64,000 bases of DNA, from the NCBI GenBank assembly GCA_964016885.1, contig OZ024740.1:18786001-18850000 (forward strand), read 5' to 3'. Below, piece after piece: positions 1,425-63,469 of this stretch; the stretch's first letter is position 1; each line of letters opens with the position of its first letter. A program made the translations under genes and the position numbers. The notes beneath the pieces were generated by a model. It saw only the letters and a program-made list of their open reading frames with translations. It ran no database searches and was not told where the DNA came from. Origin of the DNA: Eledone cirrhosa. Lineage: Eukaryota.

Positions 1425-1913
1425 ATATAGACTTCTAGGATCAGTGAAGGAACGATTCTGTCAGTTTCATTTGAACTCCATCAGTGAACTACACTGTAAA
1501 TAAACATATCGGCGAAGCGCAGTTTATGAGCACAAACTGGTCGGTTGGCCGTGACTGCGACAATCAAAAACAACCATTGTTCACTGGTAGAGTGCAAATA
1601 AAACTGACTGTATCACACCTTCATTTATTCCATGAAGAATACATAAATATATTTGCTTCTATTTTTATATATCGAGGGCTCATTCCTTTGTCAATAAGGA
1701 AAGAGCAGTTCCTATAACTCTTTTCCGGACTTCGAAGATTAATTGGTGCTGTTTCTTCTAAAGGAAATCACCAGGAAAGCTTTCATGATGATTTCTTTTG
1801 AATGAAACAGTGTTAGTCCGGTTGAAGCCATTTCTGTATTAAATATGATGTTTACACTCTACTAATGTATTGAGTACATAAATAACTATGGTTACCCCCG
1901 ATTGAGCCGGGGA

Positions 1914-1956
<43 letters not shown>

Positions 1957-2072: not shown

Positions 2073-2106
<34 letters not shown>

Positions 2107-16672: not shown

Positions 16673-16960
16673 ACTCTTGGGTTCAATCGGGGGTAACCAC
16701 AGTTAGTAAGGTACTCAATACATTAGTAGAGTGTAAATATTTAATATAGAAATGGCTTCGACAGGACTAGAACTGTTTCATTAAAAAAAAATCACCTGGA
16801 AAGCACTTTTGAATGAAGCAGTTCTAGTCCTGTAGAAGCCATTTCTATATTAAACATGTTGTTTACACTCTACTAATGTATTGAGTACTCTGGTGCGTTA
16901 TGGTCCACCTGGTTCCTTACCACACTTCCTTCAATATATATATATATATATATAGACAAG

Positions 16961-17726: not shown

Positions 17727-17822
17727 CCCCCTTGAAAAGATCGGCTATTTATTCACCAGGCTAAAAATTCTAATTTAGTCCAAAAATAGCCGTCGAAACG
17801 GCTTGAGCTCTGCCGTCGGGGT
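17727..17822 (+). ncRNA. Type I hammerhead-like motif, U3-A8 core variant, long stem II
   Basis: CCCC-UUGAAAA-GA(U)CGGCUAUUU...AAAUAGCCG-UC-GAAAC-GGC(UUGAGCUCU)GCC-GUC^GGGG. Confidence 0.65.
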
Positions 17823-33300: not shown

Positions 33301-36300
33301 GTGGTGTAGCTGTTGTACCAGGAATAACCTGGGGTCTGTGGTGTAGCTGTTGTACCAGGAATAACCTGGTGTCTGTGGTGTAGCTGTTGTACCAGGAATA
33401 ACCTGGTGTCTGTGGTGTAGCTGTTGTACCAGGAATAACCTGGGGTCTGTGGTGTAGCTGTTGTACCAGGAATAACCTGGTGTCTGTGGTGTAGCTGTTG
33501 TACCAGGAATAACCTGGTGTCTGTGGTGTAGCTGTTGTACCAGGAATAACCTGGGGTCTGTGGTGTAGCTGTTGTACCAGGAATAGTCTGGAGTCTGTGG
33601 TGTAGCTGTTGTACCAGGAATAGCCTGGGGTCTGTGGTGTAGCTGTTGTACCAGGAATAACCTGGGGTCTGTGGTGTAGCTGTTGTACCAGGAATAACCT
33701 GGGGTCTGTGGTGTAGCTGTTGTACCAGGAATAACCTGGGGTCTGTGGTGTAGCTGTTGTACCAGGAATAACCTGGGGTCTGTGGTGTAGCTGTTGTACC
33801 AGGAATAACCTGGTGTCTGTGGTGTAGCTGTTGTACCAGGAATAACCTGGTGTCTGTGGTGTAGCTGTTGTACCAGGAATAACCTGGGGTCTGTGGTGTA
33901 GCTGTTGTACCAGGAATAACCTGGGGTCTGTGGTGTAGCTGTTGTACCAGGAATAACCTGGGGTCTGTGGTGTAGCTGTTGTACCAGGAATAACCTGGGG
34001 TCTGTGGTGTAGCTGTTGTACCAGGAATAACCTGGGGTCTGTGGTGTAGCTGTTGTACCAGGAATAGTCTGGTGTCTGTGGTGTAGCTGTTGTACCAGGA
34101 ATAGTCTGGTGTCTGTGGTGTAGCTGTTGTACCAGGAATAACCTGGTGTCTGTGGTGTAGCTGTTGTACCAGGAATAGTCTGGGGTCTGTGGTGTAGCTG
34201 TTGTACCAGGAATAACCTGGTGTCTGTGGTGTAGCTGTTGTACCAGAAATAGTCTGGGGTCTGTGGTGTAGCTGTTGTACCAGGAATAGTCTGGGGTCTG
34301 TGGTGTAGCTGTTGTACCAGGAATAGTCTGGGGTCTGTGGTGTAGCTGTTGTACCAGGAATAGCCTGGGGTCTGTGGTGTAGCTGTTGTACCAGGAATAA
34401 CCTGGTGTCTGTGGTGTAGCTGTTGTACCAGGAATAGTCTGGGGTCTGTGGTGTAGCTGTTGTACCAGGAATAACCTGGGGTCTGTGGTGTAGCTGTTGT
34501 ACCAGGAATAACCTGGGGTCTGTGGTGTAGCTGTTGTACCAGGAATAGCCTGGGGTCTGTGGTGTAGCTGTTGTACCAGGAATGACCTGGGGTCTGTGGT
34601 GTAGCTGTTGTACCAGGAATAGTCTGGGGTCTGTGGTGTAGCTGTTGTACCAGGAATAGTCTGGGGTCTGTGGTGTAGCTGTTGTACCAGGAATAACCTG
34701 GGGTCTGTGGTGTAGCTGTTGTACCAGGAATGACCTGGGGTCTGTGGTGTAGCTGTTGTACCAGGAATAGTCTGGGGACTGTGGTGTAGCTGTTGTACCA
34801 GGAATAACCTGGTGTCTGTGGTGTAGCTGTTGTACCAGGAATGACCTGGGGTCTGTGGTGTAGCTGTTGTACCAGGAATAACCTGGGGTCTGTGGTGTAG
34901 CTGTTGTACCAGGAATGACCTGGGGTCTGTGGTGTAGCTGTTGTACCAGGAATAACCTGGGGTCTGTGGTGTAGCTGTTGTACCAGGAATAACCTGGGGT
35001 CTGTGGTGTAGCTGTTGTACCAGGAATGACCTGGGGTCTGTGGTGTAGCTGTTGTACCAGGAATAACCTGGGGTCTGTGGTGTAGCTGTTGTACCAGGAA
35101 TAACCTGGGGTCTGTGGTGTAGCTGTTGTACCAGGAATGACCTGGGGTCTGTGGTGTAGCTGTTGTACCAGGAATAACCTGGGGTCTGTGGTGTAGCTGT
35201 TGTACCAGGAATAACCTGGGGTCTGTGGTGTAGCTGTTGTACCAGGAATAACCTGGGGTCTGTGGTGTAGCTGTTGTACCAGGAATAGTCTGGGGTCTGT
35301 GGTGTAGCTGTTGTACCAGGAATAGTCTGGGGTCTGTGGTGTATCTGTTGTACCAGGAATAGTCTGGGGTCTGTGGTGTATCTGTTGTACCAGGAATAGT
35401 CTGGGGTCTGTGGTGTAGCTGTTGTACCAGGAATAGTCTGGGGTCTGTGGTGTAGCTGTTGTACCAGGAATAGTCTGGGGTCTGTGGTGTATCTGTTGTA
35501 CCAGGAATGACCTGGGGTCTGTGGTGTAGCTGTTGTACCAGGAATGACCTGGGGTCTGTGGTGTAGCTGTTGTACCAGGAATGACCTGGGGTCTGTCGTG
35601 TAGCTGTTGTACCAGGAATGACCTGGGGTCTGTGGTGTAGCTGTTGTACCAGGAATGACCTGGGGTCTGTGGTGTAGCTGTTGTACCAGGAATGACCTGG
35701 GGTCTGTGGTGTAGCTGTTGTACCAGGAATAGTCTGGGGTCTGTGGTGTAGCTGTTGTACCAGGAATAGTCTGGGGTCTGTGGTGTAGCTGTTGTACCAG
35801 GAATAGTCTGGGGTCTGTGGTGTAGCTGTTGTACCAGGAATAGTCTGGGGTCTGTGGTGTAGCTGTTGTACCAGGAATAACCTGGGGTCTGTGGTGTAGC
35901 TGTTGTACCAGGAATAGTCTGGGGACTGTGGTGTATCTGTTGTACCAGGAATGACCTGGGGTCTGTGGTGTAGCTGTTGTACCAGGAATGACCTGGGGTC
36001 TGTGGTGTAGCTGTTGTACCAGGAATAGTCTGGGGTCTGTGGTGTATCTGTTGTACCAGGAATGACCTGGGGTCTGTGGTGTAGCTGTTGTACCAGGAAT
36101 AGTCTGGGGTCTGTGGTGTATCTGTTGTACCAGGAATGACCTGGGGTCTGTGGTGTAGCTGTTGTACCAGGAATGACCTGGGGTCTGTGGTGTAGCTGTT
36201 GTACCAGGAATGACCTGGGGTCTGTGGTGTAGCTGTTGTACCAGGAATAACCTGGTGTCTGTGGTGTAGCTGTTGTACCAGGAATAGTCTGGTGTCTGTG

Positions 36301-39300
36301 GTGTAGCTGTTGTACCAGGAATGACCTGGGGTCTGTGGTGTAGCTGTTGTACCAGGAATGACCTGGGGTCTGTGGTGTAGCTGTTGTACCAGGAATGACC
36401 TGGGGTCTGTGGTGTAGCTGTTGTACCAGGAATAACCTGGGGTCTGTGGTGTAGCTGTTGTACCAGGAATGACCTGGGGTCTGTGGTGTAGCTGTTGTAC
36501 CAGGAATGACCTGGGGTCTGTGGTGTAGCTGTTGTACCAGGAATAACCTGGTGTCTGTGGTGTAGCTGTTGTACCAGGAATAGTCTGGGGTCTGTGGTGT
36601 AGCTGTTGTACCAGGAATAGTCTGGGGTCTGTGGTGTAGCTGTTGTACCAGGAATAACCTGGGGTCTGTGGTGTAGCTGTTGTACCAGGAATGACCTGGG
36701 GTCTGTGGTGTAGCTGTTGTACCAGGAATAACCTGGTGTCTGTGGTGTAGCTGTTGTACCAGGAATAGTCTGGTGTCTGTGGTGTAGCTGTTGTACCAGG
36801 AATGACCTGGGGTCTGTGGTGTAGCTGTTGTACCAGGAATGACCTGGGGTCTGTGGTGTAGCTGTTGTACCAGGAATGACCTGGGGTCTGTGGTGTAGCT
36901 GTTGTACCAGGAATAACCTGGGGTCTGTGGTGTAGCTGTTGTACCAGGAATGACCTGGGGTCTGTGGTGTAGCTGTTGTACCAGGAATGACCTGGGGTCT
37001 GTGGTGTAGCTGTTGTACCAGGAATAACCTGGTGTCTGTGGTGTAGCTGTTGTACCAGGAATGACCTGGGGTCTGTGGTGTAGCTGTTGTACCAGGAATA
37101 ACCTGGTGTCTGTGGTGTAGCTGTTGTACCAGGAATAGTCTGGTGTCTGTGGTGTAGCTGTTGTACCAGGAATAGCCTGGGGTCTGTGGTGTAGCTGTTG
37201 TACCAGGAATAACCTGGGGTCTGTGGTGTAGCTGTTGTACCAGGAATAACCTGGGGTCTGTGGTGTAGCTGTTGTACCAGGAATAGTCTGGGGTCTGTGG
37301 TGTAGCTGTTGTACCAGGAATAGCCTGGGGTCTGTGGTGTAGCTGTTGTACCAGGAATAACCTGGGGTCTGTGGTGTAGCTGTTGTACCAGGAATAGTCT
37401 GGTGTCTGTGGTGTAGCTGTTGTACCAGGAATAGCCTGGGGTCTGTGGTGTAGCTGTTGTACCAGGAATAACCTGGGGTCTGTGGTGTAGCTGTTGTACC
37501 AGGAATAGTCTGGTGTCTGTGGTGTAGCTGTTGTACCAGGAATAGCCTGGGGTCTGTGGTGTAGCTGTTGTACCAGGAATAACCTGGGGTCTGTGGTGTA
37601 GCTGTTGTACCAGGAATAGCCTGGGGTCTGTGGTGTAGCTGTTGTACCAGGAATAACCTGGGGTCTGTGGTGTAGCTGTTGTACCAGGAATAACCTGGGG
37701 TCTGTGGTGTAGCTGTTGTACCAGGAATAACCTGGGGTCTGTGGTGTAGCTGTTGTACCAGGAATAACCTGGGGTCTGTGGTGTAGCTGTTGTACCAGGA
37801 ATAACCTGGTGTCTGTGGTGTAGCTGTTGTACCAGGAATAGTCTGGGGTCTGTGGTGTAGCTGTTGTACCAGGAATAACCTGGGGTCTGTGGTGTAGCTG
37901 TTGTACCAGGAATAGTCTGGGGTCTGTGGTGTAGCTGTTGTACCAGGAATAACCTGGGGTCTGTGGTGTAGCTGTTGTACCAGGAATAGTCTGGGGTCTG
38001 TGGTGTAGCTGTTGTACCAGGAATAGCCTGGGGTCTGTGGTGTAGCTGTTGTACCAGGAATAGTCTGGGGTCTGTGGTGTAGCTGTTGTACCAGGAATAG
38101 TCTGGGGTCTGTGGTGTAGCTGTTGTACCAGGAATAACCTGGGGTCTGTGGTGTAGCTGTTGTACCAGGAATAGTCTGGGGTCTGTGGTGTAGCTGTTGT
38201 ACCAGGAATAACCTGGGGTCTGTGGTGTAGCTGTTGTACCAGGAATAGTCTGGGGTCTGTGGTGTAGCTGTTGTACCAGGAATAACCTGGGGTCTGTGGT
38301 GTAGCTGTTGTACCAGGAATAGTCTGGGGTCTGTGGTGTAGCTGTTGTACCAGGAATAGTCTGGGGTCTGTGGTGTAGCTGTTGTACCAGGAATAGTCTG
38401 GGGTCTGTGGTGTAGCTGTTGTACCAGGAATAGCCTGGGGTCTGTGGTGTAGCTGTTGTACCAGGAATAGTCTGGGGTCTGTGGTGTAGCTGTTGTACCA
38501 GGAATAGTCTGGGGTCTGTGGTGTAGCTGTTGTACCAGGAATAGTCTGGGGTCTGTGGTGTAGCTGTTGTACCAGGAATAGTCTGGGGTCTGTGGTGTAG
38601 CTGTTGTACCAGGAATAGTCTGGGGTCTGTGGTGTATCTGTTGTACCAGGAATAACCTGGGGTCTGTGGTGTAGCTGTTGTACCAGGAATAACCTGGTGT
38701 CTGTGGTGTAGCTGTTGTACCAGGAATAACCTGGTGTCTGTGGTGTAGCTGTTGTACCAGGAATAACCTGGTGTCTGTGGTGTAGCTGTTGTACCAGGAA
38801 TAGTCTGGGGTCTGTGGTGTAGCTGTTGTACCAGGAATAACCTGGTGTCTGTGGTGTAGCTGTTGTACCAGGAATAGTCTGGGGTCTGTGGTGTAGCTGT
38901 TGTACCAGGAATAACCTGGTGTCTGTGGTGTAGCTGTTGTACCAGGAATAACCTGGTGTCTGTGGTGTAGCTGTTGTACCAGGAATAACCTGGGGTCTGT
39001 GGTGTAGCTGTTGTACCAGGAATAGTCTGGGGACTGTGGTGTAGCTGTTGTACCAGGAATAACCTGGGGTCTGTGGTGTAGCTGTTGTACCAGGAATAAC
39101 CTGGTGTCTGTGGTGTAGCTGTTGTACCAGGAATAACCTGGGGTCTGTGGTGTAGCTGTTGTACCAGGAATAGTCTGGGGTCTGTGGTGTAGCTGTTGTA
39201 CCAGGAATAACCTGGGGTCTGTGGTGTAGCTGTTGTACCAGGAATAACCTGGTGTCTGTGGTGTAGCTGTTGTACCAGGAATAGCCTGGGGTCTGTGGTG

Positions 39301-42300
39301 TAGCTGTTGTACCAGGAATAGTCTGGGGTCTGTGGTGTAGCTGTTGTACCAGGAATAACCTGGTGTCTGTGGTGTAGCTGTTGTACCAGGAATAACCTGG
39401 GGTCTGTGGTGTAGCTGTTGTACCAGGAATAACCTGGTGTCTGTGGTGTAGCTGTTGTACCAGGAATAACCTGGGGTCTGTGGTGTAGCTGTTGTACCAG
39501 GAATAGTCTGGGGTCTGTGGTGTAGCTGTTGTACCAGGAATAACCTGGGGTCTGTGGTGTAGCTGTTGTACCAGGAATAGTCTGGGGTCTGTGGTGTAGC
39601 TGTTGTACCAGGAATAACCTGGGGTCTGTGGTGTAGCTGTTGTACCAGGAATAGTCTGGGGACTGTGGTGTAGCTGTTGTACCAGGAATAGTCTGGGGTC
39701 TGTGGTGTAGCTGTTGTACCAGGAATAGTCTGGGGTCTGTGGTGTAGCTGTTGTACCAGGAATAACCTGGGGTCTGTGGTGTAGCTGTTGTACCAGGAAT
39801 AGTCTGGGGACTGTGGTGTAGCTGTTGTACCAGGAATAGTCTGGGGACTGTGGTGTAGCTGTTGTACCAGGAATAGTCTGGGGACTGTGGTGTAGCTGTT
39901 GTACCAGGAATAACCTGGTGTCTGTGGTGTAGCTGTTGTACCAGGAATAGTCTGGGGACTGTGGTGTAGCTGTTGTACCAGGAATAGTCTGGGGACTGTG
40001 GTGTAGCTGTTGTACCAGGAATAGTCTGGGGTCTGTGGTGTAGCTGTTGTACCAGGAATAACCTGGGGTCTGTGGTGTAGCTGTTGTACCAGGAATAACC
40101 TGGTGTCTGTGGTGTAGCTGTTGTACCAGGAATAACCTGGTGTCTGTGGTGTAGCTGTTGTACCAGGAATAGCCTGGGGTCTGTGGTGTAGCTGTTGTAC
40201 CAGGAATAGTCTGGGGTCTGTGGTGTAGCTGTTGTACCAGGAATAGTCTGGGGTCTGTGGTGTAGCTGTTGTACCAGGAATAACCTGGGGTCTGTGGTGT
40301 AGCTGTTGTACCAGGAATAACCTGGGGTCTGTGGTGTAGCTGTTGTACCAGGAATAACCTGGTGTCTGTGGTGTAGCTGTTGTACCAGGAATGACCTGGG
40401 GTCTGTGGTGTAGCTGTTGTACTAGGAATAACCTGGGGTCTGTGGTGTAGCTGTTGTACCAGGAATAACCTGGGGTCTGTGGTGTAGCTGTTGTACCGGG
40501 AATAGTCTGGGGACTGTGGTGTAGCTGTTGTACCAGGAATAGCCTGGGGTCTGTGGTGTAGCTGTTGTACCAGGAATAGCCTGGGGTCTGTGGTGTAGCT
40601 GTTGTACCAGGAATAACCTGGGGTCTGTGGTGTAGCTGTTGTACCAGGAATGACCTGGGGTCTGTGGTGTAGCTGTTGTACCGGGAATAGTCTGGGGACT
40701 GTGGTGTAGCTGTTGTACCAGGAATAACCTGGGGTCTGTGGTGTAGCTGTTGTACCAGGAATGACCTGGGGTCTGTGGTGTAGCTGTTGTACTAGGAATA
40801 ACCTGGGGTCTGTGGTGTAGCTGTTGTACCAGGAATAACCTGGGGTCTGTGGTGTAGCTGTTGTACCGGGAATAGTCTGGGGACTGTGGTGTAGCTGTTG
40901 TACCAGGAATAGCCTGGGGTCTGTGGTGTAGCTGTTGTACCAGGAATAGCCTGGGGTCTGTGGTGTAGCTGTTGTACCAGGAATAACCTGGGGTCTGTGG
41001 TGTAGCTGTTGTACCGGGAATAGTCTGGGGACTGTGGTGTAGCTGTTGTACCAGGAATAGCCTGGGGTCTGTGGTGTAGCTGTTGTACCAGGAATAGTCT
41101 GGGGTCTGTGGTGTAGCTGTTGTACCAGGAATAACCTGGTGTCTGTGGTGTAGCTGTTGTACCAGGAATAACCTGGGGTCTGTGGTGTAGCTGTTGTACC
41201 AGGAATAACCTGGTGTCTGTGGTGTAGCTGTTGTACCAGGAATAGCCTGGGGTCTGTGGTGTAGCTGTTGTACCAGGAATAACCTGGTGTCTGTGGTGTA
41301 GCTGTTGTACCAGGAATAGCCTGGGGTCTGTGGTGTAGCTGTTGTACCAGGAATAACCTGGTGTCTGTGGTGTAGCTGTTGTACCAGGAATAGCCTGGGG
41401 TCTGTGGTGTAGCTGTTGTACCAGGAATAACCTGGTGTCTGTGGTGTAGCTGTTGTACCAGGAATAGCCTGGGGTCTGTGGTGTAGCTGTTGTACCAGGA
41501 ATAACCTGGGGTCTGTGGTGTAGCTGTTGTACCAGGAATAGCCTGGGGTCTGTGGTGTAGCTGTTGTACCAGGAATAGTCTGGGGTCTGTGGTGTAGCTG
41601 TTGTACCAGGAATAACCTGGGGTCTGTGGTGTAGCTGTTGTACCAGGAATAGCCTGGGGTCTGTGGTGTAGCTGTTGTACCAGGAATAGTCTGGGGTCTG
41701 TGGTGTAGCTGTTGTACCAGGAATAGTCTGGGGTCTGTGGTGTAGCTGTTGTACCAGGAATAACCTGGTGTCTGTGGTGTAGCTGTTGTACCAGGAATAA
41801 CCTGGGGTCTGTGGTGTAGCTGTTGTACCAGGAATAACCTGGTGTCTGTGGTGTAGCTGTTGTACCAGGAATAACCTGGGGTCTGTGGTGTAGCTGTTGT
41901 ACCAGGAATAACCTGGTGTCTGTGGTGTAGCTGTTGTACCAGGAATAACCTGGTGTCTGTGGTGTAGCTGTTGTACCAGGAATAGCCTGGGGTCTGTGGT
42001 GTAGCTGTTGTACCAGGAATAGTCTGGGGTCTGTGGTGTAGCTGTTGTACCAGGAATAGTCTGGGGTCTGTGGTGTAGCTGTTGTACCAGGAATAACCTG
42101 GGGTCTGTGGTGTAGCTGTTGTACCAGGAATAACCTGGTGTCTGTGGTGTAGCTGTTGTACCAGGAATAACCTGGGGTCTGTGGTGTAGCTGTTGTACCA
42201 GGAATAACCTGGTGTCTGTGGTGTAGCTGTTGTACCAGGAATAACCTGGGGTCTGTGGTGTAGCTGTTGTACCAGGAATAGTCTGGGGTCTGTGGTGTAG

Positions 42301-45300
42301 CTGTTGTACCAGGAATAACCTGGTGTCTGTGGTGTAGCTGTTGTACCAGGAATAACCTGGTGTCTGTGGTGTAGCTGTTGTACCAGGAATAACCTGGTGT
42401 CTGTGGTGTAGCTGTTGTACCAGGAATAGTCTGGGGACTGTGGTGTAGCTGTTGTACCAGGAATAGCCTGGGGTCTGTGGTGTAGCTGTTGTACCAGGAA
42501 TAGTCTGGGGTCTGTGGTGTAGCTGTTGTACCAGGAATAGTCTGGGGTCTGTGGTGTAGCTGTTGTACCAGGAATAACCTGGGGTCTGTGGTATAGCTGT
42601 TGTACCAGGAATAACCTGGGGTCTGTGGTGTAGCTGTTGTACCAGGAATAGTCTGGGGACTGTGGTGTAGCTGTTGTACCAGGAATAACCTGGGGTCTGT
42701 GGTGTAGCTGTTGTACCAGGAATAACCTGGGGTCTGTGGTGTAGCTGTTGTACCAGGAATAACCTGGGGTCTGTGGTGTAGCTGTTGTACCAGGAATAGT
42801 CTGGGGTCTGTGGTGTAGCTGTTGTACCAGGAATAACCTGGGGTCTGTGGTGTAGCTGTTGTACCAGGAATAGTTTGGGGTCTGTGGTGTAGCTGTTGTA
42901 CCAGGAATAGTCTGGGGTCTGTGGTGTAGCTGTTGTACCAGGAATAGTCTGGGGTCTGTGGTGTAGCTGTTGTACCAGGAATAGTTTGGGGTCTGTGGTG
43001 TAGCTGTTGTACCAGGAATAACCTGGGGTCTGTGGTATAGCTGTTGTACCAGGAATAACCTGGGGTCTGTGGTGTAGCTGTTGTACCAGGAATAACCTGG
43101 TGTCTGTGGTGTAGCTGTTGTACCAGGAATAACCTGGTGTCTGTGGTGTAGCTGTTGTACCAGGAATAGCCTGGGGTCTGTGGTGTAGCTGTTGTACCAG
43201 GAATAACCTGGGGACTGTGGTGTAGCTGTTGTACCAGGAATAGTCTGGGGTCTGTGGTGTAGCTGTTGTACCAGGAATAGTTTGGGGTCTGTGGTGTAGC
43301 TGTTGTACCAGGAATAGTCTGGGGTCTGTGGTGTATCTGTTGTACCAGGAATAACCTGGGGTCTGTGGTGTAGCTGTTGTACCAGGAATAACCTGGGGTC
43401 TGTGGTGTAGCTGTTGTACTAGGAATAACCTGGGGTCTGTGGTGTAGCTGTTGTACCAGGAATAGTCTCGGGTCTGTGGTGTAGCTGTTGTACCAGGAAT
43501 AGTCTGGGGTCTGTGGTGTAGCTGTTGTACCAGGAATAGTCTGGGGTCTGTGGTGTAGCTGTTGTACCAGGAATAACCTGGGGTCTGTGGTGTAGCTGTT
43601 GTACCAGGAATAGTCTGGGGTCTGTGGTGTATCTGTTGTACCAGGAATAACCTGGGGTCTGTGGTGTAGCTGTTGTACCAGGAATAACCTGGGGTCTGTG
43701 GTGTAGCTGTTGTACCAGGAATAGTCTCGGGTCTGTGGTGTAGCTGTTGTACCAGGAATAGTCTGGGGTCTGTGGTGTAGCTGTTGTACCAGGAATAACC
43801 TGGGGTCTGTGGTGTAGCTGTTGTACCAGGAATAGTCTCGGGTCTGTGGTGTAGCTGTTGTACCAGGAATAGTCTGGGGTCTGTGGTGTAGCTGTTGTAC
43901 CAGGAATAGTCTGGGGTCTGTGGTGTAGCTGTTGTACCAGGAATAACCTGGGGTCTGTGGTGTAGCTGTTGTACCAGGAATAGTCTGGGGTCTGTGGTGT
44001 AGCTGTTGTACCAGGAATAACCTGGGGTCTGTGGTGTAGCTGTTGTACCAGGAATAGTCTGGGGTCTGTGGTGTAGCTGTTGTACCAGGAATAACCTGGG
44101 GTCTGTGGTGTAGCTGTTGTACCAGGAATAGTCTGGGGTCTGTGGTGTAGCTGTTGTACCAGGAATAACCTGGGGTCTGTGGTGTAGCTGTTGTACCAGG
44201 AATAGTCTGGGGTCTGTGGTGTAGCTGTTGTACCAGGAATAACCTGGGGTCTGTGGTGTAGCTGTTGTACCAGGAATAGTCTGGGGTCTGTGGTGTAGCT
44301 GTTGTACCAGGAATAGTCTGGGGTCTGTGGTGTAGCTGTTGTACCAGGAATAGTCTCGGGTCTGTGGTGTAGCTGTTGTACCAGGAATAGTCTGGGGTCT
44401 GTGGTGTAGCTGTTGTACCAGGAATAGTCTCGGGTCTGTGGTGTATCTGTTGTACCAGGAATAACCTGGGGTCTGTGGTGTAGCTGTTGTACCAGGAATA
44501 ACCTGGGGTCTGTGGTGTAGCTGTTGTACCAGGAATAGTCTGGGGTCTGTGGTGTAGCTGTTGTACCAGGAATAGTCTGGGGTCTGTGGTGTAGCTGTTG
44601 TACCAGGAATAACCTGGGGTCTGTGGTGTAGCTGTTGTACCAGGAATAGTTTGGGGTCTGTGGTGTATCTGTTGTACCAGGAATAACCTGGGGTCTGTGG
44701 TGTAGCTGTTGTACCAGGAATAACCTGGGGTCTGTGGTGTAGCTGTTGTACCAGGAATAGTCTGGGGACTGTGGTGTAGCTGTTGTACCAGGAATAGTCT
44801 GGGGTCTGTGGTGTAGCTGTTGTACCAGGAATAACCTGGGGTCTGTGGTGTAGCTGTTGTACCAGGAATAACCTGGGGACTGTGGTGTAGCTGTTGTACC
44901 AGGAATAGTCTGGGGTCTGTGGTGTAGCTGTTGTACCAGGAATAACCTGGGGTCTGTGGTGTAGCTGTTGTACCAAGAATAACCTGGGGTCTGTGGTGTA
45001 GCTGTTGTACCAGGAATAGTCTGGGGTCTGTGGTGTAGCTGTTGTACCAGGAATAGTCTGGGGACTGTGGTGTAGCTGTTGTACCAGGAATAGTCTGGGG
45101 TCTGTGGTGTAGCTGTTGTACCAGGAATAACCTGGGGTCTGTGGTGTAGCTGTTGTACCAGGAATAGTCTGGGGTCTGTGGTGTAGCTGTTGTACCAAGA
45201 ATAACCTGGGGTCTGTGGTGTAGCTGTTGTACCAGGAATAGTCTGGGGTCTGTGGTGTAGCTGTTGTACCAGGAATAGTCTGGGGACTGTGGTGTAGCTG

Positions 45301-45701
45301 TTGTACCAGGAATAGTCTGGGGTCTGTGGTGTAGCTGTTGTACCAGGAATAGTCTGGGGTCTGTGGTGTAGCTGTTGTACCAGGAATAGTCTGGGGTCTG
45401 TGGTGTAGCTGTTGTACCAGGAATAACCTGGTGTCTGTGGTGTAGCTGTTGTACCAGGAATAACCTGGGGTCTGTGGTGTAGCTGTTGTACCAAGAATAA
45501 CCTGGGGTCTGTGGTGTAGCTGTTGTACCAAGAATAACCTGGGGTCTGTGGTGTAGCTGTTGTACCAGGAATAACCTGGGGTCTGTGGTGTAGCTGTTGT
45601 ACCAAGAATAACCTGGGGACTGTGGTGTAGCTGTTGTACCAGGAATAGTCTGGGGTCTGTGGTGTAGCTGTTGTACCAGGAATAACCTGGGGTCTGTGGT
45701 G
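27310..45701. repeat. Giant intronic minisatellite, 37-bp unit x 497
   Basis: Consensus GTGTAGCTGTTGTACCAGGAATA(A/G)(C/T)CTGG(G/T)G(T/A)CTGTG. 27310 + 497x37 = 45699 lands on a unit start. The 37-aa periodicity of the ORF track equals three units. Confidence 0.99.
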
Positions 45702-45790
45702 AGATGATGACGGCAATAATAACCATTCATTATGACGTGTGTATGTAAATTGACTTGTTGTGCACACACACATACACACACACACACACA

Positions 45791-45930: not shown

Positions 45931-46179
45931 GTTATGTAATAAACAAAGTAAGACAATTATTCCATTTACCAGAGGTTTCACGAAGGCAGACGAGCTCGAC
46001 ACGAGCGATTTCAGACATCTGTGTCGAGCTCGTCTGCCTTCCTGAAACCTTTGGTAAATTATATAATTGTCTTATGTTGTTTATTACATGACTAAATAGG
46101 TCTGTAGCCTACATAGAGCACTCTCCCTTCCTTTACCTTTCCTACGGACACAATATATATATATATGTATATATATATA

Positions 46180-46341
46180 TATTCATTTTATTAAGGCTAA
46201 ATAGTGAGTCTTATTCCTCCGGTGTTTCGCTTGTGTATCACAGGGTCGTCAGACAAAATGTTCTTTTCTGATGACCCTGTGGTAAATAGGCGAAACCCCG
46301 GAGTAACAAAACTCACGATTTACCCTTATTAACATGAATAT
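46180..46341. repeat. Imperfect fold-back element with two partly decayed hammerhead motifs
   Basis: Plus arm CUGAUGA-C-CCUGU...AUAGG-C-GAAAC-CCCGGA-GUA^ACAAAA. Minus arm UUUUGU-CUGACGA...GAAAC-ACCGGA-GGA. Confidence 0.65.
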
Positions 46342-46395
46342 TAAAACTCTACTTCTGTATTGAGTACCCTTTTCTGTCAAACGTCAATCACATAC

Positions 46396-46437
<42 letters not shown>

Positions 46438-47724: not shown

Positions 47725-47759
47725 CTGGAACAGAATAGAAATAGAGAAGAAGAATAATA

Positions 47760-48135
47760 ATGGTTTCTAATTTAGGCACAAGGCCAGCAATTTGAAGGGG
47801 GAGGGAAAAGTATATTAATTCGACCCCAGTGCATTACTGGTACTTTATTTTATCAATCTCGTAAGGATGAAAGGCAAAATTAACCTCGGCGGGATTTGAA
47901 CTCAGACCATAAAGGGCCGTAACTCTTTGCTGCTAAGCATGGCGTCCGATTCTCTACCGGCTCTGCCAATCCACCATCCTAAACTAAACTAATTATTGTC
48001 TCTACTTTTGGCACAAGCCCAGCAATTATCCCAGTACATTACTGGTACTTTATTTTATCGACCCCGTAAGGATGAAAGGTAAAGTGAACCTCGACGGGAT
48101 TTGAACTCAGACTATAAGGGGGTGTAACTCTATGA
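47760..48135 (-). mobile_element. Tandem pair of dominant-family SINEs next to the 104-bp exon
   Basis: Same dimer junction (ctctaccggctctgccaatccaccatcctaaactaaactaat) as 21580-21982. Confidence 0.85.
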
Positions 48136-48294
48136 TGCATAATAATAATTCAAGTACGGAAGATAACTCCGGACGTGTTTCGGTGTTATTGTAGACTTAT
48201 CAGTACTATCATTAATTATAATGTACAAGATTACATAAAGTGTTTAGAGATTATGAAAAGGAATGTAATCCTGTTTAATTATATATGTAACTTG

Positions 48295-48590
48295 CTCCTT
48301 TGACGCAAGAGTGCAAGAAAAGAAGGAGAAAATTAACCAGTACCAGGGTGTTAAGTGGGAAATGAAAAGGATTTGGAACTGTTGTGAGATCAAGGTTGTC
48401 CACATTGTCATAGGAGCACTAGGTACTATCTTGAAGAGTTTTCAAAGCAAGCTGAAGAACATTACCTCAGCCCCCTTTTTGGAAAACATCAAAATGCAAG
48501 GACCTTCTGATATGTCCTGAATACCTGAGGCTGCAGGTAGTGGCTTAGGGTAAATTTTCCGGTTATATAACATCAATGACTGAGATATCA
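48295..48590 (+). mobile_element. R4/Dong-like LINE 3' fragment (related fragment at about 6960-7205)
   Basis: EKEKINQYQGVKWEMKRIWNC..KVVHIVIGALG. Shares the tail cctgaatac/tctgaggctgcaggtagtggctt with 7120-7155. Confidence 0.65.
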
Positions 48591-48742
48591 AATTCGAAAT
48601 AATAGTAATGATAATAATAATAAGGATCAGGAAGGAAGTATCAATATGAAATCAATAGGTTTATTCATACGTGACGCACGTTTCGCGGTCGATCAGGCTC
48701 ATAACAAAAATGCCGAACTGATGAACTGAGGGAAGTAATGAT

Positions 48743-48840
<98 letters not shown>

Positions 48841-48967
48841 GTTATTCCGGGTTGAATCGGAGGTAACCACAGTAAGTAAGGTACTCAATACATAGCAGAG
48901 TATAACAGTTTTAATATAGATGAGATTCTACAGGACTAGAACTGTTTCATTCATTAGAAATCATCAG

Positions 48968-49016
48968 GATTCCTGATGATTTCTAATGAATGAAACAGTT
49001 CTAGTCCTGTAGAATC
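48968..49016 (+). ncRNA. Type I hammerhead ribozyme inside a perfect palindrome (48914-49026)
   Basis: GAUUC-CUGAUGA-U-UUC(UAAU)GAA-U-GAAAC-AG(UUCUAGUC)CU-GUA^GAAUC. The 56-bp arms surround a 1-nt centre at 48970. Confidence 0.8.
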
Positions 49017-49021
49017 TCATC

Positions 49022-49068
<47 letters not shown>

Positions 49069-49259
49069 AAAAGGAAAACAGAAATAACAACACAATCGGT
49101 ACAGTATATGGAAGGTATATATTAGGTTAACGTTTGATATGGCAGGAAGAGGGTATATATATATATATTGTTATACTTGGGGAGGGTCATATTTGTGTAA
49201 TATTGCCAGAATTAATAACAGAACACACTCACTGTTTGGTTGGTTTTCGCTTCTCGCTG

Positions 49260-49310
<51 letters not shown>

Positions 49311-49500
49311 AATAATTGTTTCTACTTTTGGCACAAGGCCAGCAATTTTCCCACTGGTAATTTATTTTATCGACCAGTAAGGATGAAAGACAATGTTAAC
49401 CTCGGCGGGATTTGAACTCAGACCATAAAGGGCCGTAACTCTTTGCTGCAAAGCATGGCGTCCGACCGTGTACCGATACTGCCAATCCACCACCCTTTAT

Positions 49501-49887
49501 ATAGTGAAATAATGGTTTCTGTGAAGAGTAACATGGTTGGCTGTACAATAAGGTGCTTTATTTCAAGTACTGACAATTGTTTCATTGTTCAGGTGAGTCT
49601 AGAGTTCGCTAATCGATTGAAGTTGGGTCACTCGATCTCCAATACATTATTTACCTCTGATCAACACATCAGAGTACGTAGATATAAAAATGCCTCGAGT
49701 GAATTATTTTTATATCTACGTACTCTGATGTGTTGATCAGGGGTAAATAATGTATTGGAGATCGAGTGACGCAACTTCAATCGATTAGCGAACTCTAGAC
49801 TCACCTGAACAATGAAACAATTGTCAATACCTGAAATAAAGTCCTTTATTGTACAGCCAACCATGTTACTATTCATTCTTTCACTAT
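49501..49887. repeat. Fold-back element with hammerhead-like motifs on both arms (49567-49677 minus, 49720-49830 plus)
   Basis: Inverted arms of about 165-190 bp around a 14-nt spacer (49692-49705). Minus arm reads GUACU-CUGAUGU-GUUGAUCAG...CUGAACAAU-GAAAC-AAUU-GUC^AGUAC (A9 replaced by U). Confidence 0.8.
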
Positions 49888-49914
49888 TATTACTCCAAGT
49901 ATAACCTATGATGT

Positions 49915-50012
49915 TGATGTTAAGGGCAATACAATGTTGATGTTAAGGGCAATACAATGTTGATGTTAAGGGCAATACAATGTTGATGTTAAGGCCAATA
50001 CAATGTTGATGT
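49915..50012. repeat. 23-bp tandem repeat x4.3
   Basis: Unit TGATGTTAAGGGCAATACAATGT. Confidence 0.95.
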
Positions 50013-50088
50013 GGGAAGAGGGTGCAAGTTTGAAGGGATTAACTTCGAAGGAATGAGAAATCAAGACATAGAGACAGAAATAACTCAC

Positions 50089-51130: not shown

Positions 51131-51240
51131 ATTACGTTTATTGGTTGGTGACGCGCGTTTCGCCACTGGCCAGCTCAAGGTTCGATCTGTATCGATCTGA
51201 CCTGACTCTGTAACCCGCGGCTCGTCAGACCCCTTGTAAT
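51131..51240 (-). ncRNA. Type I hammerhead ribozyme with about 60-nt stem II
   Basis: GGU-CUGACGA-GCCGC...GUGGC-GAAAC-GCGC-GUC^ACC. Canonical core, palindromic stem III ACGCGCGU, distal AUUAC/GUAAU pairing. Confidence 0.82.
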
Positions 51241-51309
51241 GTATATATATATAGTGAAAGAATGAAGAATAACATGGTCGGCTGTACAACAAGGGGCTTT
51301 ATTTCAGGT

Positions 51310-51416
51310 ATTAACAATTGTTTCATTGATCAGGTGAGTTTAGAGGTCGCTAATTACTCGAAGTTGTGTCACTCGATCTTAAATACAGTATTTACCTCTG
51401 ATCAAATCCTCAGAAT
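51310..51416 (-). ncRNA. Type I hammerhead ribozyme with about 80-nt stem II (same family as the 49.5-49.9 kb arms)
   Basis: AUU-CUGAGGA-U-UUGAUCAG...CUGAUCAA-U-GAAAC-AAUU-GUU^AAU. Confidence 0.7.
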
Positions 51417-51686
51417 GTGTATATATATATATATATATATATCAAAGGTATATATTGAGTTAGAAACTCAAAATAGTCTCTTACAATTAAATAGCTCAAA
51501 GAAAGAGGTTTTTCTGAGCCGTGAAATATAATTAATATAAAAGAGATAAACACAGATATAAACATATATGTGTTCAAACCACATTGTTAATAGCTAGTAT
51601 TTTTTTTCACCCTAGCGAACGCCTAGTCCCTTACAATTTGAACACATGTATCTTTATATCTGTGTTTATCTCTCTTTTATATTCAA

Positions 51687-52674: not shown

Positions 52675-53162
52675 TTATATATGCATATATATATATATAT
52701 ATTCTGAGAATTTGATCAGAGGTAAACACTGTACCTCTATGCGTCAAAACATGGTGCCCGATGGTCTAGCGATACTGCCGGAATATATATATATATATAT
52801 ATCCAAAATTAAGATAAATCAAAGTGAATTTAATCTAAATCAAAATTATGGGTGTCATGCCAGAAAGGCATGCGCCATATCACCCGTAAAATAAACTCCA
52901 AGATTCTAATGAATAGGTCCGAGCATTTTATAACAACTAGAAATTGATTAACATATAATTAAACATATGAAACAATTTTCATATGTTTCATATGTTTATT
53001 TATATTTTAATCAATTTCTAGTTGTGACTATAGCGTCAAAAAGGGAAAAATAGTTATCGTAAGATGTAGGAAAAATAATTCAAACTCAACTCAAAGAGAA
53101 TCAGGATATAGATTCATCCACACAATTTAGTGAAATCCAGGGAAAAATAAATAGAGCCTTAA

Positions 53163-53239: not shown

Positions 53240-53568
53240 GTATATCCTAAACGGACGGCAGTCAAAGTCATTTCTTTGCATGGGTTTTTGTCCATTCTAA
53301 AAAGTTAAAATGATAAAGTATTACTACTATATAACTTACATCTATTGTTGTAACACCATTGAAATGCACAAGTTTCACCAATTCACTATTATGCACTAAT
53401 CATCTCAAATGCATTCATGATTTACTAGCTTTGTCATTAAGCCAGTTGCCTCAACTAGATTGCAATTATACTCAAAAGAACTTTAAAATGTCAATCACTT
53501 GTCAGTAATTCACTATGATCATTTAATTATTAGATAGTTGTTGCTTGCATTGCCTTAAAAAATAGTAG

Positions 53569-54629
53569 ACCAGATAGAAAAATGCGTACAGCAAAAAAAA
53601 GTATTATTGTTGGAATATAAACCTTTAAAAATACAGGACAAGAAACTAAAATAAAACTTTAAAAGAATAGGACAAGAAACTAAGATAAAACTTTAAAAGA
53701 ATAGGACAAGAAACTAAGATAAAACTTTAAAGAATTGGACAAGAAATAACAAATTTTACAATAATATTAGTGGCAAAATGTTTTTATTCGTTTCCTGTGC
53801 TATGCCCCAGTATCTTCTTGATTAGTGCATAATAATTGTCATGCTCTCATTGTGCGTTGCCGCTGAGCGGTTGGTTCTGGTTGGGGTTGGTTGGCTGAGC
53901 AGTTCTGCTCCGTCAGAATGACCATTGCAAGAAGAATTGGCCGATGCAGCTGCAGGTCTCCTCCAAGAATGCACTTCTGGTCCCGCAACACCAGACGAAG
54001 ATAGAGAAGACGACCGGGACAAGATGTCGACTCTGACCACCGACTACGGCACCTCCCTCAACCACCGGTCCTCCCTCCCTCTGTCCCGTCATCCCTCCAG
54101 TCCTCCTGCTCCCCCTTCCTGTACCAGAAAGCTGTGGCACGCATTTATCTGGACTGCCCGACTTGAACTCAAGGACAAGATGCAAGGAGAAGATGGACGG
54201 GTTGGTCAAGATCAAGGATGAGCGGGACGACAAGACCGTCCGCTGCTGCTCAAGATCTGTGCTCATGGGCCCATGGGTCCATTCACATTATGCATGACAC
54301 ATGAGGCGTGTCGCCGAATGATGAAATAGGGGTATGGTTATGGCCCAATTGGTGTTCAAACCAGGATCAAATGATCCCCCAGTCTGACGACGACCTCTGA
54401 ATGTGGAACCCAGAGCCTATGAACGTGGAACTCGATTTTTTACCAATAAATATTTTGCAACTAATATTATTGTAAAATTTTTTATTTCTTGTCCAATTCT
54501 TTAAAGTGTTATCTTAGTTTCTTGTCCTATTCTTTTAAAGTTTTATTTTAGTTTCTTGTCCTGTATTTTTAAAGGTTTATATTCCAACAATATTACTTTT
54601 TTTTTGCTGTACGCATTTTTCTATCTGGT
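53569..54629. repeat. Inverted-repeat element: AT-rich arms (53569-53787 / 54445-54629) around a GC-richer core of about 650 bp
   Basis: The arms are reverse complements containing 31-bp subrepeats, with one extra subrepeat in the left arm. Confidence 0.88.
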
Positions 54630-54752
54630 ATATATATCTGAAATATCATTTCATTTTTTCCGTTTATCGTTTTCGGTGCACCCGGCCGATTAACACACTC
54701 GATATGCAAATTGGGCTACTCAGCCGTTAATATGCATAAGGTAAGTATATAC

Positions 54753-54839
54753 GTTCAACAATCTGGCAGGAAGGTATACGTTGCTGACGATAGCTAACAA
54801 GCTTGAAACTAGTACAGCGTTCCTTTGTCAGTGTTGAAC
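54753..54839 (+). ncRNA. Type I hammerhead ribozyme, copy 1 (predicted cleavage after 54814)
   Basis: CGUUG-CUGACGA-U-AGCU(AACA)AGCU-U-GAAAC-UA-GUA^CAGCG. Stem I is extended by GGAA/UUCC, CUGGCA/UGUCAG and GUUCAACA/UGUUGAAC. Confidence 0.9.
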
Positions 54840-55174
54840 AAACGAGCAACGGTGGTTGCTAGACACTACGGCTTAATACGGGATGTTTGTTTACAAACAC
54901 ACCGAGCATTATAATAAATGTTCGGTGAATCCATACGTGCATATATATATGTGTGCATGTATGTATATATATATATACATACTACTGTACGTCGGTATAC
55001 ATATATGTATGTACGTGTACATACTTATATTTAAGTAACAGCCGTACTAAGAGTGGGAAATGAAATATCGTTTCATTTTTTCCGTTTATCGTTTTCGGTG
55101 CACCCGGCCGATTAACCCACTCGATATGCAAATTGGGCTACTCAGCCGTTAATATGCATAAGGTAAGTATATAC

Positions 55175-55261
55175 GTTCAACAATCGGGCAGGAAGGTATA
55201 CGTTGCTGACGATAGCTAACAAGCTTGAAACTAGTACAGCGTTCCTTTGTCAGTGTTGAAC
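55175..55261 (+). ncRNA. Type I hammerhead ribozyme, copy 2 (cleavage after 55236)
   Basis: Same core and stems as copy 1, with one substitution in distal stem I. Confidence 0.9.
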
Positions 55262-55600
55262 AAACGAGCAACGGTGGTTGCTAGACACTACGGCTTAATA
55301 CGGGATGTTTGTTTACAAACACACCGAGCATTATAATAAATGTTCGGTGAATCCATACGTGCATATATATATGTGTGCATGTATGTATATATATATATAT
55401 ATACATACTACTGTACGTCGGTATACATATATGTATGTACGTGTACATACTTATATTTAAGTAACAGCCGTACTAAGAGTGGGAAATGAAATATCCTTTC
55501 ATTTTTTCCGTTTATCGTTTTCGGTGCACCCGGCCGATTAACCCACTCGATATGCAAATTGGGCTACTCAGCCGTTAATATGCATAAGGTAAGTATATAC

Positions 55601-55687
55601 GTTCAACAATCTGGCAGGAAGGTATACGTTGCTGACGATAGCTAACAAGCTTGAAACTAGTACAGCGTTCCTTTGTCAGTGTTGAAC
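55601..55687 (+). ncRNA. Type I hammerhead ribozyme, copy 3 (cleavage after 55662)
   Basis: Identical to copy 1. Confidence 0.9.
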
Positions 55688-55933
55688 AAACGAGCAACGG
55701 TGGTTGCTAGACACTACGGCTTAATACGGGATGTTTGTTTACAAACACACCGAGCATTATAATAAATGTTCGGTGAATCCATACGTGCATATATATATGT
55801 GTGCATGTATGTATATATATATATATACATACTACTGTACGTCGGTATACATATATGTATGTACGTGTACATACTTATATTTAAGTAACAGCCGTACTAA
55901 GAGTGGGAAATGAAATATCGTTTCATTTTTTCC

Positions 55934-56010
<77 letters not shown>

Positions 56011-57749: not shown

Positions 57750-58177
57750 GTAGAATCAAACTGTAGAATAAAATCAAACTGCCCTTTTCAAAATAAGTGT
57801 TTAGATAAAAACGTAGTCTATAAATGCACAGTTAAAACTAGTGATAATATATTTAACTATGTCGGTGCCACTTCTACAAAATTTAAAGATCGCTGTAATA
57901 ACCACAATCTTTCTTTCAGAAGATCTGATAAAAAAATCTTCTACTTCTCTTTCACATCTTATATGGAACTTAAAAAGCAAGAATATGGACTACTCAATAT
58001 CTTGAAAAACGATTTCGAAAGCACCTGCGTACCGAAATATGGCTTTATCAAAATTCTGTAAATTGTATATTGAAGACATTTTTTATATAATTAACTGTCA
58101 AAACTCTATTAATCTCAGGACAGAATTATTTAATTCTTGCAGACATCGCCAAAATTCTACATTCAGAACTATGTGTA
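57750..58177 (+). pseudogene. Penelope-like element GIY-YIG endonuclease remnant
   Basis: [25 protein letters not shown]...[17 protein letters not shown], then a frameshift at the A-run near 57930, then [12 protein letters not shown]...[11 protein letters not shown]...CKL...NLRTELFNSCRH. This is the VVY/YVG (GIY-YIG) domain with the C-terminal CRH typical of PLEs. Confidence 0.85.
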
Positions 58178-59606: not shown

Positions 59607-60939
<1,333 letters not shown>

Positions 60940-61019
60940 CTATTACCCACTCTACTACCCTAAGTATTGAGTACTTTGGTGCGTTATGGTCCATCTGGTT
61001 CCTTACCACATTTCCTTCG

Positions 61020-61065
<46 letters not shown>

Positions 61066-62085: not shown

Positions 62086-63046
62086 TCAACTTTTTAGCCC
62101 AGCTAATGATCTAAAAAGTCTTGCACAGAGTCGGCAACCAAAACATTCACTGGGAATAGTCGGCTGTGGTTGGAGTTCGTGTACTTTTGCATGTCGCTTG
62201 AGCCCTCCTGCTGATTTACATTCTCTACCACATGCTTGGCAAGCATGATGAGTAGCATCTCCAACGGCAGCCTGGTAGTCAACCACTGGTCTAACTTTAT
62301 GACTGCGAAGATGACTTTCGAGTCCAGCTTTGCTTAGGCAGAGTCTCGCACAGACGTTGCATGTCAGCACCATAGCAGGACCCTCGCCGTCTGGAAGTGC
62401 AACAGCAATGTCCTTCCTCACATCCCGCTTTACTTTCTCGTATGCGATTCGAGATGCCTCAAAGGCAACTTGCCCCTCATATACAGTCTTTCTCCATTTA
62501 TTACGATCAACAGCAACATTTTCCCATGTATCAGCAGAGATGTTAGCGTCTTCAAAGAGCCTTTCAACGAATCCTTATACCTCTTTTTTTGGTTTATGTG
62601 GCGGTCGTTTTCCTTTAACTAACTCTCCATAAAAGAGTTGTTTTTGTATTCTAGAATCCTTCATCCTGGCAAGGTGACCACTCCAACGGAGTCGTTGCTT
62701 AAGCACAAGAGCTTCTATACTGTCACACATAGAGCTTTCCAAAATCTCGATATCACTGATGTAGTCCCTCCAGTGAACGCCATGGATCCGTCTGAGACAC
62801 ATCTGATGGAAACGCTCCAATTGTTTAAGGTGGTGTCGATATGGGACCCAGGTCTCGCAGGCATAAAGAAGAGAAGAGAGCACACACCTTTACCTTTGTC
62901 TTCTTGCATATGTCTCGCCGACCCCAGAGTCGCCTTTCTAGCTTTCCGAAAGCATCACTTGCTTTCCTCATCCTAAGTGAGATTTCACTATCAAGGTTGC
63001 TGTATCGATTGACAGTGCTTCCCAGGTAGACAAACTGATCAACCAC
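62086..63046 (-). mobile_element. 5'-truncated RTE-clade LINE (RT C-terminus plus three C2H2-like fingers), frameshifted
   Basis: VDQFVYLGS...[94 protein letters not shown]. The 5' side abuts a SINE. Confidence 0.9.
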
Positions 63047-63469
63047 TCCAATAATAATAATTTTTCTGCTTTTGGCACAGATCCAGCGACTGCCCCAGCG
63101 CATTACTGGTGCTCTCTTTTGTTGACTCCGTGGGGATGAAAGGCAAGGTTGACCTCGTCGGGACTTGAGCTCGGAGCGTGGAGAGCCATAGCTCTATGCT
63201 GTAAAACAATTATAATAATACTGAACTGTAACACGAACGGCTTCAACTATACGAACTCTTGAAAGTCAACAGTTGACATAATCTTGTAATCTTGTATCAG
63301 TAATGACGGTAATATATATATATATATATATGTGTTTGTGTAAGTGAGTAGCGTGTGTGTGTTTGTTTGTATGTATGAGTGTTGGTGTGCGCGTGCGTAT
63401 GTATGTGTGTGTATGTCGTACGTATAAGTGTCAATAATTGGGACATACATACATACATACATTCATATA

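What the first reader, a model, noticed from the sequence alone, without database searches (positions are those of the whole stretch)
48914..49026. Perfect palindrome of back-to-back hammerheads, folded exactly at the 5' strand of stem I
Seen: 56-bp perfect arms with a 1-nt centre at 48970, inside the GAUUC strand of stem I. The plus copy is complete, while the minus copy keeps only a short stem I. Related copies at 1770-1830 and 16711-16888 are also fold-backs, and their stem I reads GCUUUC/GAAGC versus GAUUC/GAAUC here, suggesting covariation. Inference: snap-back priming or template switching at the ribozyme during insertion. A read-through transcript would form a long dsRNA hairpin that masks the ribozyme and could be an ADAR or Dicer substrate inside the SLC22 intron.
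Basis: partly seen in the sequence, partly recalled or inferred. Interest (0 to 1): 0.7.

Follow-up and report, generated by a model that had tools for sequence, protein, structure and literature searches.

The report
Head-to-head Penelope ribozyme repeat insertion
The palindrome is real, but it is the join between two mirror-image stubs of a very common ribozyme-bearing jumping-gene repeat inserted head to head in an intron, a known habit of Penelope-like elements; only the repeated position of the join beside the ribozyme is of some interest.

Summary
The 56-bp arms and 1-nt centre at 48970 are confirmed. They are the inner part of a 187-nt head-to-head insertion (48840-49026) in (TA)n. Each arm holds a type I hammerhead-like motif; it has an intact core but U·U at 10.1-11.1 and no Rfam hit. 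The repeat is high-copy: 11,121 and 8,130 contigs were laid in two species, and 7,263 of 12.5 million raw reads in a third run. Head-to-head inverted ends with junction palindromes, (TA)n targets and hammerheads are documented Penelope-like element (PLE) features; no ORF links this family to a PLE. Stem I is a recurrent join point, not the only one: 4 of 8 hammerhead-bearing fold-backs in the window join there. Read data show a second class at loop II and many copies running on upstream. Snap-back through stem I itself predicts a different product. I favour two target-primed cDNAs joined through the 5-nt quasi-palindromic stem I strand. The SLC22-like host is on the minus strand, so its pre-mRNA carries the weaker copy, buried in a 55-bp hairpin. 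Editing and small RNAs were not testable. Verdict: an ordinary PLE-type insertion with a modest mechanistic lead.

The parts
48743..48839 (.). left (CA)n(TA)n microsatellite, inferred insertion target
   Evidence: sequence
48840..48972 (-). minus-strand copy: weak stem I, hammerhead core at 48967-48961, downstream body, shared hairpin motif and tail ending in (TA)n
48840..48880 (-). about 40-nt 3' tail, present on this copy only
   Evidence: likeness to the 30-40 bp PLE tail is inferred
48881..48903 (-). small hairpin motif ending in GTATTGAGT, shared by three hammerhead families in the window (7 sites of the 9-mer)
   Evidence: folds as a hairpin
48914..49026 (.). perfect palindrome, 56-nt arms, centre 48970
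   Evidence: -92 kcal/mol, z about -21
48968..48972 (+). 5' strand of stem I (GATTC), a quasi-palindrome shared by both copies; the junction
   Evidence: native to the subfamily by loose-end consensus in two runs
48973..49011 (+). type I hammerhead-like core: CUGAUGA, U·U + 3-bp stem II, GAAA, 4-bp stem III with self-complementary loop, GUA triplet
   Evidence: no Rfam match
49012..49026 (+). 3' strand of stem I (GAATCT) and truncated 3' end merging into (TA)n
49022..49068 (.). right (TA)n(TG)n microsatellite
47725..50088 (-). host intron of an SLC22-like MFS transporter gene, between exons 50308-50089 and 47724-47621
   Evidence: next exon 26961-26807 gives MFS_1 E 6e-06, below the curated cut-off, and weak SLC22/SV2A hits, E 0.3-0.9
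1749..1912 (.). related fold-back C; both arms start at the 5' edge of stem I
16676..16935 (.). related fold-back B; minus arm starts at stem I, plus arm at loop II and ends in another family's tail
46182..46400 (.). fold-back H of a different hammerhead family, axis 8 nt upstream of its core

Best explanation
It is a short head-to-head insertion of the hammerhead-bearing end (pseudo-LTR) of a Penelope-like element family, non-coding at this locus. Inferred mechanism: the element's RT/GIY-YIG protein, supplied in trans, cuts both strands of a (TA)n tract. One 3' end primes cDNA at the RNA's tail; the other primes internally at the UAUAU just past the ribozyme. Both cDNAs stop in the 5' strand of stem I and are joined through that 5-nt quasi-palindrome (4 of 5 pairs, central A·A), whose repair leaves the 1-nt centre. 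Ribozyme cleavage does not set the join, which is 41 nt upstream of the cleavage site. The hairpin in the host pre-mRNA is a by-product. Shown: anatomy, copy abundance, recurrence of the join near stem I, host orientation. Inferred: PLE parentage, two-ended priming, end joining.
For: Head-to-head layout, a tail on one arm only, (TA)n on both sides. These are listed PLE features: inverted 5'-truncated copy, 30-40 bp tail, (TA)n bias, hammerhead in the pLTR (PMC8557442); junction palindromes (PMC3846280); hammerhead pairs on opposite strands 100-700 bp apart (PMC4209133). A purified PLE protein cuts and extends both strands of AT-rich DNA, initiates internally, is predicted dimeric and does not need ribozyme cleavage (PMC11167929). 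The family is high-copy in two species. GATTC is native to the subfamily (loose ends in X1 and X17). At 1955-2085 two non-overlapping parts of one family are joined head to head, which a single snap-back cannot make. Fold-back B carries different tails on its two arms. 7 of 24 listed pieces bridge the centre with 8-18 mismatches and net length change of 1-10 nt, i.e. other loci joined near the same point.
Against: No RT or endonuclease ORF is attached to this family; the only PLE-type coding fragment is an unlinked GIY-YIG piece at 57759-58058 (E 0.0099, below cut-off). Three motif searches in the one supplementary file held for PMC8557442 found nothing. Arms that are 100% identical fit copying from one molecule at least as well. 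Symmetric joints centred on loop II look like true self-priming. No target-site duplication or empty site could be seen.
Confidence: 0.55

Rival explanations
1. Same element, but the mirror half is made by snap-back: one cDNA folds on a mini-hairpin at its 3' end (the stem I/core border, or stem II), copies itself back for 56 nt and then jumps to the right-hand (TA)n through TATAT homology.
For: Identical arms. Joints 48952->48988 with 4 letters between (8 contigs in X1, 2 in X5, 1 read in X17) are the expected product of priming on the stem II hairpin. Self-priming was proposed for PLE junction palindromes (PMC3846280).
Against: The focal centre is 1 nt, below the 3-nt minimum loop; the native 3-bp hairpin at this border would give a junction 1 nt shorter than seen, and copy C is 3 nt longer than its hairpin product (read). 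The stem II DNA hairpin is only about -0.5 kcal/mol. It cannot make the non-overlapping pair at 1955-2085.
Confidence: 0.3
2. The hairpin is functional: kept as an ADAR or Dicer substrate, or as a switch that masks the ribozyme in the SLC22-like intron.
For: A 55-bp hairpin is predicted on the host strand with pair probability 0.998. In a head-to-head pair the antisense arm is transcribed first on either strand, so masking follows from the geometry (inference).
Against: It is one of a high-copy family and of at least eight such fold-backs in 64 kb. Perfect arms are explained by young age. The host-strand ribozyme has a broken stem I anyway. No conservation of this locus was shown.
Confidence: 0.07
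3. Post-insertion event or artefact: a monomer was turned into a palindrome later by repair or gene conversion at the quasi-palindrome, or the fold-back arose in library preparation or assembly.
For: Quasi-palindromes can be perfected by template switching (established knowledge, recalled). No listed contig spans the whole stretch.
Against: Fold-backs B, C and H have arms 17-21% diverged, so the class is old and genomic. Bridging pieces occur in three runs and two species, and 485 raw reads cover 48968 inside their alignments. The arms have different outer ends and flanks.
Confidence: 0.08

Closest known systems
Endonuclease-positive Penelope-like elements with an inverted 5' pLTR (Arkhipova et al. 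2013, PMC3846280; Craig et al. 2021, PMC8557442)
   Same: Head-to-head inverted truncated copy, palindrome at the junction, optional 30-40 nt tail on one end, microsatellite target.
   Different: No ORF between the ends; the whole insertion is 187 nt; parent element not identified; junction position relative to the ribozyme is not described in the passages I read.
PLE-associated minimal type I hammerheads (Cervera and de la Pena 2014, PMC4209133)
   Same: Type I topology, conserved core, short helix I, self-complementary loop III, dispersed truncated copies, some pairs on opposite strands; in D. virilis Penelope the intron ends at the 5' end of helix I.
   Different: U·U rather than the conserved G10.1-C11.1; helix II only 3 bp; a 4-bp helix III; the two ribozymes overlap rather than lying 100-700 bp apart.
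Non-LTR retrozymes (PMC7229834; bioRxiv 10.64898/2026.07.22.740005)
   Same: Short, non-coding, type I hammerhead, PLE-derived.
   Different: Retrozymes are defined by head-to-tail tandems; this is an inverted pair.
LINE-1 5' inversions by twin priming (recalled, not read here)
   Same: Second internal priming from the other target strand gives an inverted 5' part joined head to head by microhomology.
   Different: No poly(A) or visible target-site duplication; here both arms cover the same 56 nt.

Membership tests
Penelope-like element (EN+) | ORF with PLE-type RT and GIY-YIG endonuclease | tested here: not met
   No such ORF at or beside the locus; an unlinked GIY-YIG fragment lies 9 kb away. 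The parent cannot be sought without the genome.
Penelope-like element (EN+) | Inverted 5'-truncated copy joined head to head | tested here: met
Penelope-like element (EN+) | Type I hammerhead motif in the terminal repeat | tested here: met
   pattern and pairing
Penelope-like element (EN+) | 30-40 bp tail on one end | tested here: inconclusive
   About 40 nt beyond the shared motif on the left copy only, but the right copy is truncated well before it.
Penelope-like element (EN+) | AT-rich or microsatellite target | tested here: met
   (TA)n on both sides; loose ends at the element's 3' end are (TA)n-like in all four runs
Penelope-like element (EN+) | Target-site duplication | not testable with these tools
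   Target is a microsatellite; no empty site available.
Hammerhead ribozyme, type I | Core CUGANGA / GAAA / UH and three helices | tested here: met
   H17 varies A/C/U between copies
Hammerhead ribozyme, type I | G10.1-C11.1 pair | tested here: not met
   U·U here; U·U or C·C also in four other families of the window
Hammerhead ribozyme, type I | Match to an Rfam hammerhead model | tested here: not met
   0 of 109 matches and 0 of 8 are hammerheads
Hammerhead ribozyme, type I | Self-cleavage at GUA | not testable with these tools
   Needs an in vitro assay; the hammerhead fold (-3.7) is not the minimum-energy fold of the monomer (-5.6 for 50 nt).
Non-LTR retrozyme | Head-to-tail tandem units each with a hammerhead | tested here: not met
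   Inverted pair. A 59-nt go-back joint in 49 reads of X17 shows tandem forms elsewhere in the family.

The most novel reading that the evidence does not exclude
In these PLE-type families the 5' end of the copied RNA is fixed at the 5' strand of hammerhead stem I, which in this subfamily follows a T-rich tract ending in CAG like a 3' splice site, and not at the ribozyme's cut site; stem II serves as a second, self-priming turn point. The ribozyme would then act as a structural landmark for finishing the insertion rather than as a nuclease, and the thousands of copies would be a natural junction library for the unsolved second-end step of PLE integration.
Probability: 0.25. Interest if true: 0.6.

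Novelty: new member of a known kind. Interest (0 to 1): 0.3.

Why it matters
How PLEs make their inverted ends, and what their hammerheads do, are stated as open in the papers read. This locus alone settles neither. A genome with thousands of young copies and two recurrent turn points inside the ribozyme makes the question cheap to test by counting junctions. The U·U variant at 10.1-11.1 may also explain why Rfam misses these motifs.

Tried and rejected
Whole genome: none held, so no genome-wide map of centres. Collection scans: metagenomes gave 1 hit, a chance 20-mer in an unrelated-looking contig; viral and prokaryotic contigs gave 0. Expression: no RNA holder listed; this is not evidence either way. 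Rfam gave only microsatellite or hairpin look-alikes. Reading stem III as a 1-bp stem with GUC at 49004-49006 was rejected because five bases would separate it from stem I. The idea that GATTC is a chimera made by the fold-back was rejected by the loose-end consensus. Stem I strand-to-strand snap-back was rejected on geometry. An ORF start in the repeat was looked for by eye; frames close within a few codons. A rough uniform null for centres gives P about 0.0004-0.005 for 4 of 8 loci but 0.03-0.11 for 2 of 6 families; loci were picked by eye, so this is weak. Literature searches listed no paper mapping inversion points to a hammerhead; the library lacks most subscription papers, and Lunse et al. 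on PLE hammerhead variants was not held, so the U·U variant may be known. Supplementary figures of PMC4209133 and the sequence files of PMC8557442 were not seen and may bear on family identity.

Full report
Observation. The palindrome is as described: 56-nt perfect arms at 48914-48969 and 48971-49026 around a single T, folding at -92 kcal/mol on either strand with 0 of 200 shuffles as good. It is the inner part of a longer object. On the minus strand a copy runs from the centre to 48840 and then into (TA)n; on the plus strand a copy runs 56 nt and merges into (TA)n. The two copies read outward from the centre, so the pair is head to head.

Ribozyme anatomy. The plus copy reads stem I 5' strand GATTC (48968-48972), core CTGATGA, a U·U pair then a 3-bp stem II, GAAA, a 4-bp stem III, GUA (49009-49011) and the stem I 3' strand. 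Related copies have GUC and GUU at the triplet, as the UH rule allows (established knowledge). The stem III region is self-complementary at 12 of 16 positions, so a dimer fold is possible. The minus copy has an A·A mismatch in the middle of stem I (+0.2 against -3.7 kcal/mol). No Rfam hammerhead model matched (0 of 109; 0 of 8), and the conserved G10.1-C11.1 pair (PMC4209133) is absent. It is a hammerhead-like motif whose activity is untested.

Host gene. Exons with canonical splice sites lie on the minus strand at 50308-50089, 47724-47621 (the only candidate found between its neighbours outside the satellite) and 26961-26807. The last gives MFS_1 at E 6e-06, below cut-off, and weak SLC22/SV2A hits; the first gave no Pfam hit. 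Exon lengths of 104 and 155 nt match SLC22 genes as I recall them. The insertion is thus in a 2.4-kb intron, and the pre-mRNA carries the minus copy. On that strand the arms pair with mean probability 0.998. The microsatellite load resembles an octopus genome from memory; I did not test this.

Family size. I laid 4 of 19 listed runs on 48841-49022 at 80% likeness. Laid were 11,121 contigs (X1), 395 (X4), 8,130 (X5, another species) and 7,263 of 12,467,656 raw RAD reads (X17). Contig and read counts are not copy numbers, but the family is clearly abundant.

Where the fold-backs turn. Depth falls at the centre: position 48968 holds 14% (X17), 5% (X1), 13% (X4) and 1% (X5) of the flanking depth. 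X17 lists 803 and 470 loose-ended reads at the centre against 485 reads covering 48968 internally (28% of these three counts; 541 loose-end rows were not shown). So most laid sequence does not share the focal junction. The loose-end consensus in X1 and X17 agrees on a T-rich tract ending in CAG directly before ATTC, so GATTC is native and many copies continue upstream. The other subfamily shows GGCT before TTCC in X1 and X5 with low agreement (0.42-0.43) further out, and 40% of X17 reads carry the matching change in the 3' strand at 48925. Of 24 listed pieces, 7 bridge the centre by 31 letters or more on both sides, with 8-18 mismatches and 1-10 nt net length change; they are other loci joined near the same point. 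Among the 15 joints shown (111 not shown) and 12 inserts shown (98 not shown), one group has one arm starting at or within 12 nt of stem I, and another has both arms starting at +13 to +18 around loop II, including 48952->48988 in 8 X1 and 2 X5 contigs. A reference centred on stem I favours seeing joins there and hides joins more than about 40 nt upstream, so these tables show recurrence, not enrichment. RAD reads come from few loci and fold-back chimeras can arise in libraries.

Within the window, eight local inverted repeats carry a recognisable hammerhead or half of one (read by eye). A, B, C and H join at stem I (axis or one arm within 8 nt of the core). E (49522-49875) starts 19 nt upstream, D (17658-17729) about 38 nt upstream, F (45931-46092) apparently within stem II, and G (16961-17545) is asymmetric and far off. 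Two solo copies of E begin within the stem I strand, next to (TA)n. By family this is 2 of 6, which a rough null does not exclude.

What it is. Inverted 5'-truncated copies, a tail on one end, (TA)n targets and hammerheads in the pLTR are described for EN+ PLEs (PMC8557442, passages). Palindromes at head-to-head junctions were described and ascribed to self-priming (PMC3846280, passages and Discussion). Hammerhead pairs on opposite strands, and an intron ending at the 5' end of helix I in D. virilis Penelope, are in PMC4209133 (parts 1-2 of 4). I also read parts 1-2 of 4 of PMC11167929, part 1 of 5 of bioRxiv 10.64898/2026.07.22.740005 and passages of PMC2377424, PMC6765202 and PMC7229834. No coding region ties this family to a PLE, so it works like a PLE end insertion; formal membership awaits the parent.

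Mechanism. Pairing of the two stem I strands would give arms that start downstream of the ribozyme with the core in the spacer; here the core is in both arms, so that form of snap-back is out. The join is also 41 nt from the cleavage site. GATTC differs from its own reverse complement only at the middle base, so two cDNA ends stopping there can anneal by 4 of 5 pairs, and repair gives exactly a 1-nt centre. A PLE protein cuts and extends both target strands and starts internally. At 1955-2085 the tail and the ribozyme part of family D are joined head to head without overlap (native order seen at 60881-61020), as twin priming predicts. Against this, identical arms and the loop II joints fit snap-back, and both routes may operate. 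Why cDNA stops at stem I is unexplained; the splice-acceptor-like sequence is a lead only.

Earlier notes of this scan from other genomes describe similar palindromic PLE stubs and 5' ends just upstream of a hammerhead. I did not check them and do not count them as support.

Verdict. Real, ordinary in kind, with a modest testable lead on junction position. Interest 0.3; new member of a known kind.

Noticed in passing
window 54640-55935: Three head-to-tail units of about 425 nt, each with an intact type I hammerhead (cores 54784, 55206, 55632; 6-bp stem I, palindromic minimal loop III): retrozyme-like.
   Followed up: no
window 48973, 49725, 54784, 58568(-), 46268: Position 10.1-11.1 is U·U in four hammerhead families and C·C in a fifth, instead of G-C; none is found by Rfam.
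   Followed up: partly
window 1867, 2012, 16721, 16878, 46357, 48891, 60964: A small hairpin motif ending in GTATTGAGT, followed by a 35-45 nt tail and a microsatellite, is shared by three otherwise different families; at 16878 one family's body switches to another's tail at this motif. Candidate RT recognition element.
   Followed up: partly
window 1955-2085: Two non-overlapping parts of family D joined head to head between (TA)n tracts, a twin-priming-like structure.
   Followed up: partly
window 49522-49875 and 51251-51433: Family E: hammerhead-like motif with an about 70-nt insertion in stem II and palindromic loop III; 170-nt arms 95% complementary in the same intron as the focus.
   Followed up: partly
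window 57759-58170: Frameshifted C-terminal GIY-YIG fragment of PLE type next to (TA)n (Pfam E 0.0099).
   Followed up: no
window about 27200-45760: An 18-kb tandem array inside the transporter intron, open in three minus-strand frames for thousands of codons.
   Followed up: no
window 53566-54632, 52933-53025, 51534-51683, 21212-21885: Further local inverted repeats with no hammerhead recognised.
   Followed up: no
window 48660-48740 and 51140-51243: Two more hammerhead-like remnants on the minus strand, one directly left of the focal microsatellite.
   Followed up: no
window 62086-63193 (-): Fragments of a LINE-type reverse transcriptase C-terminal region with zinc-finger-like motifs (identity judged by eye).
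   Followed up: no
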